NCBI RefSeq assembly: GCF_009914755.1
Contig: NC_060941.1
Reading direction: 5' to 3' (one strand)
DNA length: 64,000 nucleotides
Source of the DNA: the human T2T-CHM13v2.0 reference genome, Homo sapiens
Positions 24,781 through 27,995 of this stretch are shown here, piece by piece. Below the pieces are notes generated by a model. That model made no database searches. It saw only the letters and a list, made by a program, of their open reading frames with translations, and was not told where the DNA came from. The position numbers and the translations under genes were made by a program. Numbering within the stretch: position 1 is the first letter of the stretch; every line of letters starts with the position of its first letter.

Positions 24781-25033
24781 TCTTTAAAGGCCAATCCCAT
24801 AGCAAATGACAGAGACTCACTTGAGTAAGAAAGGTTTTTGACAAGAAAACCCACAGAAGAAGAGGTAAGCTGTGGATATAAGAAAGGCACTACAATCTGT
24901 ATTTAAATCTAATTGCACACTAGATAATATATGTATGAAAAATTATTTAATCCAGTTTCCTGATTTCATTATATATTTCTTATAAGGTTTTCATTAGGCT
25001 TTTGTTTTTGTTTTTGGTTTTAAATAAAAACAC

Positions 25034-25039
25034 TTTATT
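25034..25039 (-). terminator. SLC52A1 polyadenylation signal
   Basis: TTTATT on + = AATAAA on -, about 245 nt after the stop codon. Confidence 0.85.
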
Positions 25040-25284
25040 GCACAAATCCCACAAAGGTCTCAGGCCCTGGGTCCAAGCCCACAGCCCCAACCTGTCCCCT
25101 GGCTCTGGGCCTGGTCTTTGGTGCCCACCCTGGCCTCACATGCCAACGTCTTCTGTGGAGTGTGCAGGTGTCCATGAGCGTTCCTGTGTTGGGGGAAGCC
25201 TGCCTGGGCCACAAGTAGTCAGGCACTGTGGCAGCCTCACGATGAAGACAGGTGGGGTGGAGTTGGGTCCCCACCTGCCCAGGC

Positions 25285-25497
25285 TCAGGGGCCACAGGGG
25301 TCTACACAGTCCTTTCTGCTTTGAAACACGTGGTAGATGCTGGTGGGAGGGAACATGGCACCGGCACCAAGCAGGGAGCCCACTTGGATGGCCACACCAG
25401 CTGCCAGCAATGCCGGCCGACCCCCACCATGCAGCAGGGAGCTTGCAGCCACCTTCACATATGAGAACACACACAGACACAGCACCCACGACAGCAC
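25285..25497 (-). CDS. SLC52A1: SLC52A1 last coding exon, [16 protein letters not shown]...[10 protein letters not shown]
   Basis: TCCCTTGCAG acceptor; 213 nt including TGA; C-terminus of riboflavin transporter 1 (RFVT1/GPR172B). Confidence 0.97.
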
Positions 25498-25588
25498 CTG
25501 CAAGGGAGGACACAGCAGCAGGCTGAGCATGACATGCACTTGCTCCAGGGGACACCCTCCTCCCCACTTCATGTCTCCACTTGCTCAC

Positions 25589-25712
25589 CACAAGGACCAC
25601 CCCTGCAGTGGTGCCCACCAGGGGTGGGCAGGGGCTCAGGATTGCCAGTGCCATCAGGTAGGCCCCAAAGAGCATGCCCAGCAGAGAAAGACCAACCAGC
25701 CCTGCCAGGGAC
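25589..25712 (-). CDS. SLC52A1: SLC52A1 coding exon 3 (c.1011-1134), [41 protein letters not shown]
   Basis: CCCCAACAG acceptor, GTG|GTGAGC donor; 124 nt; SPCPP motif of the SLC52 family. Confidence 0.97.
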
Positions 25713-25806
25713 CTGTTGGGGATGAGCAGAGACTCAGGGCTGGCTGTTCTGGGACCTGGACCCCAACCTTAAGTTCCACCCACCAAGCCTGGGGACCCTT
25801 TTGCAC

Positions 25807-26686
25807 CTGCACAGCACGCCCATGGCCAGGAAGCAGGCAAGGGGGTTGGCGGCACTGCCCAGCACCACAGCCAGGTGGTAGGCCAGGCGCCCATAGGGCA
25901 AACAGGAAAAGCTCTGCACAGAAGGCAGCACGCCATTGGTCACGGCACTGGTGAAGGCCATCAGGCCCAGCAGGAAGGCACCATGGGCTGAGAACAGCTG
26001 ATGGACCTCAGGGTCTGGGCCAGGGATGGTGCCTGCTGCCTGGCTCGGTGGCTCCTGCAATGGCAAAGCCTCTTCTTCCTCCTTCTCTTCCTCCTCTGCT
26101 CCTGGGGATCCCAGTTGAAGTTCAGGCCCTGAGCCCCCTGTGGTTACAGAGGGTAGTGATGGCAACAGCAACAGGAGACCCCGGAAGGCGGCAGCTGAAG
26201 TGACCAGAAGGGCAGTCAGTGCCCAGAAGAAGGTGCTGGCAGGAAAACGCTCAGGGAAGTCGAGGGGAGGCCCAGAGGTGCCATTGGTGGGCGCTGGTGG
26301 GCACTCGAGGCGGCCCACACCTTGCACTAGGGCCAGCACACAGGGGAGTAGGGCACTGAGACCCTGACCCAGGAAGAAAGACCGTAAGAAAGGAGGTGGC
26401 AGGTGGCTCAGGAAGGGCAGGAAAGTGACATTAGAGGTACAACAGGCCATTGCCAACACCAAGGCCAGAGTTAGGAAGGCCACAGAGTGGAGCTGCCCTG
26501 CCACTGGGGCCACGTGGTGCCACAGAGGGGCCAGCAGGGCTGTGCCCACTACACTCAGCACCTGTACCACCTGGATGGGGACCTGCTCGCCCTTGCCCGG
26601 GGCCAGCCGCCTCCACAGGGTCACCACCAGCAGACCCAGGTTTCCCAGCGCCACAACCACAGAGAGGTATGAGGGGAGGCTCCAAC
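25807..26686 (-). CDS. SLC52A1: SLC52A1 coding exon 2 (c.131-1010), GWSLPSYL...MGVLCR
   Basis: CCCTGCAG acceptor, AG|GTGCAA donor; 880 nt; multiple TM helices, N178 (NGT) sequon, acidic loop; L109 at 26490-26492 is the known PERV-A receptor determinant. Confidence 0.97.
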
Positions 26687-26804
26687 CTGCAGGGAAGGAA
26701 TGATGCCATGTCAGGAGCACAGTGGCTAAGGGACAAAGAGCTGCCACAGGCCACCTTTCTGGGCATACCTGCCCCACGCTTCCCTGTACCTCCCTCCCAC
26801 TCAC

Positions 26805-26934
26805 CCTCTGGAAGGTCTTTTACCACCACAGGCAGCTCCACCCAGATCCCGTTCACAGCAGCCCAGGAGCCCATGCCAAAAAGGGCCACCAGCAGGTGGG
26901 TCAGCACCAGACGGCCCAGCGTGGGTGCTGCCAT
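26805..26934 (-). CDS. SLC52A1: SLC52A1 coding exon 1 (c.1-130), [44 protein letters not shown]
   Basis: ATG at 26934, GAGG|GTGAGT donor; the four coding exons total 1347 nt = 448 aa + stop. Confidence 0.97.
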
Positions 26935-27041
26935 TCAGCCCAAAGCTGGACCCTCCAGGACAGGGCAAAGGTCACAGGCAGGTCCTTCCCTAGGTAGGTC
27001 CAAAGATGCTTTGGCTCTTCTGGAAACTGAAGACCTTCTAG
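26935..27041 (-). other. SLC52A1: SLC52A1 5'UTR part of the first coding exon
   Basis: CTGTCTGTTTCCCTCCAG acceptor ending at 27042 on -; no upstream ATG in this segment. Confidence 0.7.
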
Positions 27042-27188
27042 CTGGAGGGAAACAGACAGGCTGGCAGGTAATAGGCTGGTGGGACAGAACCGGAGTCAGA
27101 AGACAAGTCGGTCAGACTGCTAAGACCAGGGCAACTGGAGGGAGAGGTGGCCGGGGGCGGGCGGGGAAGGTGGGGAGCCAGGACTTAC

Positions 27189-27330
27189 CACGGGGCACCG
27201 GCTGTGCGTTTGGGTACAGCGACCCAGCAGTGCCGGCAGGCAGACAGGCAGAAAGCTGGCCCGAGGTGCAGCTGCCCCAGAGGAGCAAAGAGGGAGCTGA
27301 TTTTCCTACCCACAGAGGACCCGGGGTCCA
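27189..27330 (-). other. SLC52A1: Candidate SLC52A1 non-coding first exon (proximal)
   Basis: Consensus GTG|GTAAGT donor at 27188-27183; 5' boundary not determinable. Confidence 0.55.
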
Positions 27331-27353
27331 AGTTGTCAAAACAGCTCAGCACT

Positions 27354-27669
27354 GGCCGGGTGCGGTGGCTCACACCTGTAATCCCAGCACTTTGGGAAGC
27401 TGAGGAAGGCAGATCGCCTGAGGTCAGGAGATTGAGACCATCCTGGCCAACATGGTGAAAACCCGTCTCTACTAAAAATACAAAAATTAGCTGGTCGTGG
27501 TGGTGGGTGCCAGTAATCCCAGCTACTCAGGAGGCTGAGGCAGGAGATTCACTTGAACCCGGAAGGTGGAGGTTGCAGTGAGCCAAGATCACACCACTGC
27601 ATTCCAGCCTGGGCGACAGAACGAGATTCGGTCTCAAAAACAAAACAAAACAAAACAAAACAAAAAAAC
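27354..27669 (+). mobile_element. AluS in the SLC52A1 5' intron
   Basis: Full Alu with (CAAAA)n tail; TSD AAAACAGCTC(A/G)GCAC on both sides. Confidence 0.92.
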
Positions 27670-27691
27670 AGCTCGGCACCAACACGCTCAC

Positions 27692-27830
27692 CCTCAAATG
27701 GACCCCGGGACAAGGGCACGTCTCTGGTGCCACTTGCAACCCTAGCGCTTTTGCGACACTCAGGACTTGCTGAGGCAGGTCGAGTTGGAGAGGGGAGTGG
27801 CTGGGGCGGGCTCTGCCCGGAGGGGCGTCT
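27692..27830 (-). other. SLC52A1: Candidate SLC52A1 non-coding first exon (distal)
   Basis: AGG|GTGAGC donor at 27691-27686, beside a GC-rich promoter-like region; 5' boundary approximate. Confidence 0.55.
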
Positions 27831-27995
27831 CCGTGCTGCCCTCCCGCCTGCCTCAGGGGGGCATCCCGGGAGCCGCCAGGTGCGCAGGGGTCCCCGCACC
27901 TCCGGATCCGGCAGTCCCCGGACCCAGCGGCTGGCGGTCTGCCTGAGAGGGAGCCCTCTCCGCCGGGGAGGCGGCCCAGCCCAGAGCCCACACAG
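27780..27995 (-). promoter_or_regulatory. SLC52A1 GC-rich TATA-less promoter region
   Basis: CpG-rich, GC box GGGGCGGG near 27803, AP-2-like GCCTCAGGG near 27850; bounded upstream by an Alu cluster. Confidence 0.65.

What the first reader, a model, noticed from the sequence alone, without database searches (positions are those of the whole stretch)
24998..27995. SLC52A1 may be an intron-retaining retrocopy: genomic decayed poly(A) right after its AATAAA
Seen: on the - strand the gene ends CAATAAAGTGTTTTTATTT-AAAACCAAAAACAAAAACAAAAG. An A-rich tract interrupted by C (25021-25000) starts 12 nt after the hexamer, where a poly(A) tail would be added and where a GU-rich downstream element would normally follow. 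Composition then switches abruptly from GC-rich gene to AT-rich flank. The whole gene is ~3 kb with tiny introns (91, 94, 118, 147 nt), a class prone to retention. Known: SLC52A1 is a primate paralog of SLC52A2 (chr8q24.3) with the same exon structure, and mouse has only one counterpart. I recall the SLC52A2 mRNA also ending AATAAA...TATTT before its tail. Inference: L1 machinery may have reverse-transcribed a polyadenylated but unspliced SLC52A2 pre-mRNA, giving a functional retrogene with all parental introns, a rare route to a new gene. I could not find a TSD; the 5' junction is buried in Alus from ~28000.
Basis: partly seen in the sequence, partly recalled or inferred. Interest (0 to 1): 0.8.

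Follow-up and report, generated by a model that had tools for sequence, protein, structure and literature searches.

The report
SLC52A1: an intron-keeping retrogene
The human riboflavin/urate transporter gene SLC52A1 looks like a copy made by reverse-transcribing an unspliced, polyadenylated RNA of its parent SLC52A2, a rare way to make a new gene that still has its introns.

Summary
On the minus strand, AATAAA (25039-25034) is followed after 12 nt by a 22-nt tract with 18 A (25021-25000), and GC content then drops from about 0.6 to 0.3-0.4.

Single-copy homology to SLC52A2 (chr8) is confined to window 27881-25020. It covers all four small introns, with GT..AG at the same positions. It stops at the same spot in both genes, 14 nt after a shared AATAAA. 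After that point chr17 has the A-tract, chr8 has a GT-rich stretch, and nothing more aligns. No part of the neighbouring divergent gene on chr8, or of the shared promoter core, was copied.

The best explanation is retroposition of an unspliced, polyadenylated SLC52A2 transcript (confidence about 0.8).

Weak points:
- No significant target-site duplication was found.
- 116 GC-rich bases at the 5' end (27997-27882) cannot be placed on chr8.
- The transcript ends of SLC52A2 are inferred from sequence, not from transcript data.

Divergence (dS 0.36, non-CpG non-coding K2P 0.30) fits the published Primatomorpha date of about 66-68 Mya. The paper that gives this date names no mechanism in the passages I read. 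My searches found no paper proposing this origin. It is a new member of a known but rare kind, the partially processed or unprocessed retrogene.

The parts
25000..25021 (-). A-rich tract (18 A of 22), read as the decayed relic of a poly(A) tail. The non-templated part is 25019-25000.
   Evidence: chr8 has only AA at the matching place and then unrelated sequence.
25034..25039 (-). Inherited AATAAA poly(A) signal. It has the same 12-nt spacing to the terminal AA as in SLC52A2 (chr8 145529882-145529887).
25020..27881 (-). Segment with demonstrable, collinear, single-copy homology to chr8 145527382-145529901 (SLC52A2). It runs from promoter-proximal sequence through the exons and all introns to the predicted cleavage site.
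27042..27188 (-). Intron 1 (5' UTR intron, 147 nt), retained from the parent.
   Evidence: shared GT..AG positions. (interior homology z 7.0, 0 of 500 shuffles).
26687..26804 (-). Intron 2 (118 nt), retained. 80% identical to the parent intron.
25713..25806 (-). Intron 3 (94 nt), retained. 71% identical to the parent intron.
25498..25588 (-). Intron 4 (91 nt), retained. 80.5% identical to the parent intron.
27791..27826 (-). Conserved promoter-proximal block (32 of 36 columns identical to chr8), ending 37 nt upstream of the RefSeq SLC52A1 start at 27754. It is a candidate inherited promoter element.
   Evidence: alignment. The transcription start comes from the hub table. Function is inferred.
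27882..27997 (-). Orphan 116-nt GC-rich segment (GC 0.77) between the last demonstrable homology and the AT-rich flank. It is probably the diverged 5' end of the copy, but this is not shown.
27353..27664 (+). Later Alu insertion in exon 1, absent from chr8. Its flanking 15-nt direct repeats lie at 27338-27352 and 27665-27679.
   Evidence: One search gives 6.8% non-CpG divergence.
28001..28355 (-). Old Alu (17.3% non-CpG divergence, rank 72 of 75) whose tail abuts the 5' junction. Its short flanking repeat around CAGCTG was seen by eye only.
28356..28679 (-). Younger Alu (28375-28660, 5.5% divergence) with perfect 19-nt target-site duplications at 28356-28374 and 28661-28679.
   Evidence: (family D10).
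24930..24951 (-). ATTAAA in the chr17 flank (24951-24946) and the RefSeq 3' end (24930). This is the poly(A) site now annotated, 90 nt beyond the relic tail.
   Evidence: Hub table.

Best explanation
SLC52A1 is a retrogene made from an unspliced RNA. A polyadenylated SLC52A2 transcript that still held all four of its tiny introns was reverse-transcribed and inserted between KIF1C and ZFP3 in a Primatomorpha ancestor. The most likely agent is the L1 endonuclease/reverse transcriptase working in trans. The copy spans the transcription unit from just downstream of the chr8 bidirectional promoter to the cleavage site. It therefore carried exons, introns, splice sites and the poly(A) signal. It probably also carried a promoter element that lies inside the transcribed region, which would explain why it was expressed at once. 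It did not carry the parental downstream element, and the annotated 3' end has since moved to an ATTAAA in the flank. Shown here: the extent of homology, the exact 3' stop, the A-tract, and the inherited introns. Inferred: L1 as the agent, the position of the parental start and cleavage sites, and the inherited promoter.
For: (1) In 20 kb of chr17 against 30 kb of chr8, the only non-Alu matches are collinear blocks from window 27881 to 25020, matching chr8 145527382-145529901. A genome-wide search finds only chr17, chr8 and weak SLC52A3 exon hits.
(2) Both genes share AATAAA plus 12 nt plus AA. After that, chr17 has the 18-of-22 A tract and chr8 has a GT-rich stretch. The downstream flanks give a local score of 9 against a shuffle mean of 10.6.
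(3) AATAAA at chr8 L010 4882 is the only AATAAA or ATTAAA in the 756 nt after the SLC52A2 stop codon. The homology end therefore falls 12-14 nt after the only canonical signal, which is the usual cleavage zone.
(4) All four introns sit at identical positions with GT..AG and have homologous interiors: 67-80% identity, and intron 1 at z 7.0.
(5) No sequence of the divergent upstream ORF (start codon at L010 2076) or of the interval up to L010 2355 is detectably copied.
(6) The copy is a GC 0.62 island between flanks of GC 0.32-0.37.
(7) Direction and age: a paper (PMC13052076, passages read) reports SLC52A2 synteny in all mammals examined, and SLC52A1 only in primates and colugo, dated 68.2-65.8 Mya. 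dS of 0.356 and non-CpG non-coding K2P of 0.304 fit that age.
Against: No significant target-site duplication was found. The best candidate is AAAAG... at 28679-28666 against 25003-24987. It scores 6, a score reached by 21% of all 30-nt windows and 78% of A-rich windows.
The 116 bases at 27997-27882 cannot be placed on chr8. The collinear test gave z 1.8 (30 of 500 shuffles). The collinear placement ranks 22 of 5,966 windows, but a GC-rich exon elsewhere on chr8 scores higher. The 5' end is therefore not mapped.
The SLC52A2 start and cleavage sites are inferred from sequence grammar, not from transcript data.
A-rich tracts are common here (60 per 128 kb), and this one is short.
No outgroup empty site or other primate sequence could be examined with these tools.
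The name FBXL6 for the divergent ORF is recalled. Pfam gave no hit for its first exon.
Confidence: 0.8

Rival explanations
1. DNA-level duplicative transposition. A 2.5-2.6 kb piece of chr8 was copied as DNA into chr17, and its ends happen to coincide with the transcription unit. The A-tract is then pre-existing chr17 sequence or arose later.
For: Introns and promoter-proximal sequence are kept, as in any DNA duplicate. No target-site duplication is detectable. A-rich tracts are frequent in this window (60 in 128 kb). The one paper on the gene's origin simply says 'gene duplication'.
Against: The 3' breakpoint would have to fall by chance within the roughly 20-nt cleavage zone after the only poly(A) signal. 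It would also have to land next to a sense-strand A-tract, a chance of about 0.003. In addition, the 5' breakpoint lies within a few hundred bases of the bidirectional promoter without including any of the neighbouring gene. Together these coincidences are very unlikely.
Confidence: 0.1
2. RNA-mediated, but not from the gene's own pre-mRNA. The template was a read-through transcript from an upstream retroelement (an orphan L1 3' transduction) or from a far-upstream start site. It ended at the SLC52A2 poly(A) site and was heavily 5'-truncated on insertion.
For: This would give the same 3' end, tail and unspliced genomic content. The 5' end of the copy is not mapped, and the 116-nt orphan segment is unexplained.
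Against: There is no retroelement remnant at the 5' end of the copy. The orphan segment matches nothing else in the genome and nothing in the 12.4 kb upstream on chr8 (14 of 100 shuffles score as high). The 5' limit lies near the bidirectional promoter, as expected for the gene's own start. Truncation at that spot would be a further coincidence.
Confidence: 0.07
3. An ordinary processed (intronless) retrocopy that later gained four introns.
For: Intron gain in retrogenes is described in the literature (listing, review passages).
Against: The introns are homologous in sequence to the parental introns, not only in position.
Confidence: 0.01

Closest known systems
Rodent preproinsulin I (Ins1), the classic partially processed functional retrogene (Soares et al. 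1985). I saw it cited in review PMC5470649; the paper itself is not held, so details are recalled.
   Same: An RNA-mediated copy on another chromosome that keeps a parental intron and a poly(A) remnant and is functional. It is thought to have brought promoter sequence along because the template started upstream of the usual cap site (recalled).
   Different: Ins1 lost one of its two introns and has clear flanking direct repeats (recalled). SLC52A1 keeps all four introns, has no detectable target-site duplication, and is about 66-68 Myr old.
Classical processed retrogenes and processed pseudogenes made by L1 (for example PGK2, cited).
   Same: A different chromosome from the parent, homology limited to the transcript, a 3' end at the cleavage site, and an A-tail.
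   Different: Those are intronless, which is the feature most pipelines require. Here no intron was removed. The Baertsch 2008 scoring gives introns in the copy a large negative weight.
Small interchromosomal DNA (segmental) duplication.
   Same: Exon-intron structure and proximal promoter sequence are preserved.
   Different: DNA duplicates have arbitrary breakpoints and include non-transcribed flanks. Here no flank is copied, and an A-tail sits at the cleavage site.
L1 3' transduction and orphan transduction (recalled from the L1 literature; not read here).
   Same: Unspliced genomic sequence ending at a downstream poly(A) site with a tail.
   Different: There is no L1 remnant, and the 5' limit lies near the gene's own promoter.

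Membership tests
L1-type retrocopy (RNA-mediated duplicate) | Homology to the parent ends at the parent's poly(A) cleavage site | tested here: met
   Homology ends at window 25020, matching chr8 145529901. That is 14 nt after the shared and only AATAAA. The cleavage site itself is predicted, not taken from transcript data.
L1-type retrocopy (RNA-mediated duplicate) | A non-templated poly(A) tract directly after that point, on the sense strand | tested here: met
   18 of 22 A at 25021-25000. It is absent from chr8.
L1-type retrocopy (RNA-mediated duplicate) | Target-site duplications flanking the insert | tested here: inconclusive
   The best candidate scores 6, a score reached by 21% of all windows and 78% of A-rich windows. 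The 5' end is not mapped. At about 66-68 Myr, decay of the repeats is expected.
L1-type retrocopy (RNA-mediated duplicate) | Endonuclease target of the TT/AAAA type at the insertion site | tested here: inconclusive
   The AT-rich 5' flank reads ...TTT followed by AAAAG at 28682-28675. Without a confirmed target-site duplication this is not diagnostic.
L1-type retrocopy (RNA-mediated duplicate) | No non-transcribed parental flank is copied | tested here: met
   No homology is found downstream. None is found to the divergent upstream ORF or promoter core.
Processed retrogene | Parental introns removed | tested here: not met
   All four introns are present and homologous. It is not a processed copy.
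Partially processed or unprocessed (intron-retaining) retrogene | One or more parental introns retained, with homologous sequence, inside an otherwise retrocopy-like insert | tested here: met
   Four of four introns are retained: 67-80% identity with shared GT..AG, and intron 1 at z 7.0.
Partially processed or unprocessed (intron-retaining) retrogene | The template started upstream of the promoter that now drives the copy | not testable with these tools
   127-150 nt upstream of the SLC52A1 start (27754) are homologous to chr8, including a block with 32 of 36 identical columns. SLC52A2 start sites could not be looked up.
Segmental (DNA) duplication | Homology runs beyond the transcription unit into flanking DNA | tested here: not met
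SLC52 riboflavin transporter family (Pfam PF06237) | Match to the family profile above the curated cut-off | tested here: met
   The exon 3 translation gives E 2.1e-87 and 294 bits against a cut-off of 27.9. The full coding sequences are 86.8% identical to the chr8 paralog over 446 codons.

The most novel reading that the evidence does not exclude
SLC52A1 may be the first recognised human protein-coding gene born from a wholly unspliced pre-mRNA: four of four introns were kept, and a promoter element was carried inside the transcript. If so, it points to a hidden class. Compact genes with tiny, retention-prone introns could spawn intron-bearing retrogenes that standard pipelines file as DNA duplicates. 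In this case such an event delivered a ready-to-run gene that later became a primate urate transporter.
Probability: 0.45. Interest if true: 0.7.

Novelty: new member of a known kind. Interest (0 to 1): 0.6.

Why it matters
SLC52A1 is a disease-relevant transporter, and a 2026 paper (PMC13052076) argues it was neofunctionalised for urate handling in primates. That paper treats its birth as an unspecified 'gene duplication'. An origin from an unspliced RNA would explain how a 2.5-kb unit moved alone to another chromosome with working splice sites and a promoter. It would add a clear primate example to a very short list of intron-retaining retrogenes. It would also show that retrogene catalogues which require intron loss undercount RNA-mediated gene birth. 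The claim can be tested directly with outgroup genomes and transcript-end data.

Tried and rejected
- Target-site duplication: scanning 28760-27860 with the 30 nt after the tail gave no window better than chance.
- Orphan 5' segment as a spliced upstream exon of SLC52A2: there is no significant match in 12.4 kb upstream (14 of 100 shuffles) or anywhere else in the genome.
- Orphan segment against the promoter and first-exon block L010 2111-2226: z was 2.8, but the block is unremarkable in the unbiased scan (ranks 280-449 of 5,966), so I dropped it.
- Processed pseudogenes of SLC52A2, which would mark its cleavage site: none exist in the assembly.
- Pfam on the first exon of the divergent chr8 ORF: no family matched, so the name FBXL6 rests on recall.
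- A bacterial-type promoter/terminator scan was irrelevant to a human gene and is not used.
- The Soares 1985 paper is not held.
- A search for SLC52A2 + FBXL6 + bidirectional found nothing, so no published start-site information was obtained.
- The first literature query was swamped by general retrogene papers and says nothing about SLC52A1.
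Full report
**Observation.** On the minus strand the sequence reads CAATAAA (hexamer 25039-25034), then 12 nt ending in TATTT, then AAAACCAAAAACAAAAACAAAA (25021-25000), then G. 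The tract holds 18 A in 22 nt. GC content drops from 0.57-0.62 inside the gene to 0.39-0.40 just beyond it. The non-Alu 3' flank 24999-24780 has GC 0.32 and no CpG. The intron sizes of 147, 118, 94 and 91 nt follow from the hub's exon table and are reproduced. RefSeq's last exon runs on to 24930, which is 16 nt after an ATTAAA at 24951-24946 (hub table). The A-tract is therefore inside the annotated 3' UTR.

**Extent of homology to SLC52A2.**
- A 4.2-kb query around the gene found, apart from Alu hits, only chr8 145527630-145529901.
- I fetched 30 kb of chr8 and compared it with 20 kb of chr17 by sensitive BLAST.
- After removing multi-copy (Alu) matches, only four collinear blocks remain. They are window 27881-27791, 27285-27210, 27056-26783 and 26869-25020, matching chr8 145527382-145529901 at 72-87% identity.
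- An Alu-free query that reaches 230 nt past the A-tract again ends its chr8 match at window 25020. Genome-wide it otherwise finds only two weak SLC52A3 exon matches on chr20. No processed pseudogene exists.

**The 3' boundary.** The pairwise alignment and the chr8 sequence show that both genes have AATAAA, then 12 nt, then AA.
- After that point chr17 continues with the A-tract. chr8 continues with TGAGTTGG followed by a T- and GT-rich stretch, which looks like an ordinary downstream element.
- The last seven aligned bases (TATTTAA) are identical in both genes. Beyond them the alignment is at noise level: 35% in gapped columns and 7 of 30 in the last sliding window.
- A local alignment of chr17 25019-24780 against 2 kb of chr8 downstream sequence scored 9, against a shuffle mean of 10.6 (100 of 100 shuffles score as high).
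- The chr8 hexamer is the only AATAAA or ATTAAA in the 756 nt after the SLC52A2 stop codon.
- Homology therefore stops 12-14 nt after the parent's only canonical poly(A) signal, where cleavage is expected, and only the copy carries an A-tract there.
- A-tracts this rich occur 60 times in 128 kb of window sequence counting both strands. The chance of one starting within 3 nt of a given point on a given strand is about 0.003, before counting the coincidence with the cleavage zone.

**Introns.** All four introns are at the same positions in both genes, with GT..AG and near-identical splice-site contexts.
- Lengths are 147, 118, 94 and 91 nt on chr17 and 118, 199, 96 and 89 nt on chr8.
- The 199 on chr8 is explained by a young tandem duplication: copies 97% identical over 77 nt, spaced 98 nt apart.
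- Intron identities are 67, 80, 71 and 80.5%.
- The least similar one, intron 1, is still clearly homologous in its interior (z 7.0, 0 of 500 shuffles). So are the two halves of exon 1 on either side of a later Alu (z 5.2 and 4.7).
- The introns were therefore inherited, not gained later. No intron had been removed from the template.

**The 5' boundary.** Here homology fades instead of stopping.
- Local alignment reaches window 27881, matching chr8 145527382. Within the accepted region there are already 30-column stretches at 12-14 matches.
- The next 116 bases (27997-27882) are GC 0.77. That resembles the chr8 CpG island (GC 0.78) and is unlike the chr17 flanks (GC 0.33-0.37). They cannot be aligned with confidence.
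  - The collinear test gave z 1.8 (30 of 500 shuffles), with similar scores for control blocks.
  - There is no match elsewhere in the genome.
  - There is no match in 12.4 kb upstream on chr8 (14 of 100 shuffles).
  - In an unbiased scan of 5,966 windows, the collinear placement ranks 22nd, but a GC-rich exon elsewhere scores higher.
- I read this segment as the probable diverged 5' end of the copy. That is an inference.
- On chr8, a divergent ORF starts at L010 2076 on the other strand. I recall it as FBXL6 exon 1, but Pfam gave no hit. The interval L010 about 2100-2250 is therefore a bidirectional promoter region, with a strong GT donor at about 2240 (by eye). None of the divergent gene or this core is detectably present on chr17.
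- The copy thus corresponds to the SLC52A2 transcription unit, or to a slightly 5'-truncated version of it. Real start-site data were not available to me.

**Later insertions and the target-site duplication.**
- The exon-1 Alu (27353-27664) has 15-nt flanking repeats matching at 14 of 15 positions. It is 6.8% diverged from the window's Alu majority and absent from chr8.
- Upstream, a 5.5%-diverged Alu has perfect 19-nt repeats.
- The Alu whose tail abuts the GC-rich segment is 17.3% diverged, rank 72 of 75.
- With these Alus set aside, the AT-rich flank meets the GC-rich segment near 27997.
- A tempting repeat, AAAAG... at 28679-28666 against 25003-24987, is not significant. Its score is reached by 21% of all windows and 78% of A-rich windows. 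No target-site duplication is shown.

**Age and constraint.**
- The coding sequences give 86.8% amino-acid identity over 446 codons, with dN 0.068, dS 0.356 and dN/dS 0.19.
- Non-CpG sites of the introns and 3' UTR give K2P 0.304 over 632 sites.
- PMC13052076 (outline, abstract and passages read) reports SLC52A1 between KIF1C and ZFP3 in primates and colugo. It reports the gene absent in treeshrew, cattle, pig, rat and mouse, with SLC52A2 synteny conserved in all of them. It dates the duplication to 68.2-65.8 Mya.
- K2P of 0.30 over twice 67 Myr is about 2.2e-9 per site per year, an ordinary mammalian neutral rate (the rate is recalled). That also fixes the direction: chr8 is the parent.

**Mechanism.** The best-supported account is that a polyadenylated but unspliced SLC52A2 RNA of about 2.5-2.7 kb was reverse-transcribed and inserted into AT-rich DNA on the future chr17. 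Only about 400-500 nt of that RNA are intron.
- Because the template began near the bidirectional promoter, it included sequence that now lies 37-150 nt upstream of the SLC52A1 start. This includes a block with 32 of 36 identical columns (27826-27791). The copy may thus have brought a working promoter element with it (inferred).
- It could not bring the downstream element. The annotated 3' end now uses a flank ATTAAA 90 nt further on (hub table).
- L1 is the expected agent in a mammal of that age, but it is not demonstrated.

**Rival explanations.**
- A DNA-level duplication (about 0.1) needs three coincidences: a 3' breakpoint in the cleavage zone, an adjacent sense-strand A-tract, and a 5' breakpoint by the promoter.
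- A read-through or orphan-transduction template (about 0.07) has no supporting remnant.
- Later intron gain is excluded.

**What is in print.**
- SLC52A1 + retrocopy gave 0 papers.
- GPR172B + retrogene gave 0 papers.
- SLC52A1 + retrotranspos* gave 3 papers, unrelated by title and abstract (HERV-K, lipid myopathy, PERV).
- SLC52A1 + SLC52A2 + primate + duplication gave 4 papers, of which only PMC13052076 is relevant.
- In PMC13052076 'intron' and 'exon' occur 0 times, and 'retro' occurs once, in a retrovirus reference. No mechanism is proposed in its main text. Its supplements were not seen.
- Review PMC5470649 (passages) lists partially processed retrogenes (Soares 1985; Baertsch 2008; Zhang 2014). 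It warns that intron-containing retrocopies are overlooked.
- The main text of Baertsch 2008 does not mention GPR172, and its scoring penalises introns in the copy (passages). Its additional files were not checked.
- Passages of PMC5408686 and PMC7692494 added no relevant precedent.
- These searches cover open-access full text only.

**Verdict.** SLC52A1 is best read as an unprocessed, intron-retaining retrogene of SLC52A2. This is a new member of a known but rare kind. Three things are still missing: the target-site duplication, the exact 5' end, and transcript-level confirmation of the parent's ends.

Noticed in passing
L010:2988-3162 (chr8 145527988-145528162): SLC52A2 carries a young tandem duplication: two copies 97% identical over 77 nt, spaced 98 nt apart. 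It repeats the last ~65 nt of coding exon 2 together with its GT donor. SLC52A1 lacks it. A second intact donor therefore sits 98 nt into intron 2, and using it would shift the reading frame.
   Followed up: partly
window 24930-25039 (-): The RefSeq 3' end of SLC52A1 (24930) uses an ATTAAA (24951-24946) in chr17 flank DNA, 90 nt beyond the inherited AATAAA and relic tail. This fits a copy that lost the parental GU-rich downstream element and shifted its poly(A) site. cDNAs that seem to end at the genomic A-tract could also be internal-priming artefacts.
   Followed up: partly
window 27353-27664 (+): An AluS-age Alu (6.8% non-CpG divergence) sits antisense inside SLC52A1 exon 1 (5' UTR), with 15-nt flanking repeats. 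The hub table lists an alternative first exon starting at 27399, inside this Alu.
   Followed up: partly
window 34668-34848 (-): Other SLC52A1 transcripts start at an exon about 7 kb upstream of the copied segment (hub table), in chr17 DNA with no chr8 counterpart. This appears to be a recruited 5' exon or promoter, as is often seen for retrogenes.
   Followed up: no
window 27700-27999 compared with L010 2241-2497: The copied promoter-proximal region has lost much of its CpG content relative to the parent: CpG observed/expected is 0.50-0.59 on chr17 against 0.91-1.00 on chr8. This suggests the copy has been methylated in the germline while the parental island stayed protected.
   Followed up: no
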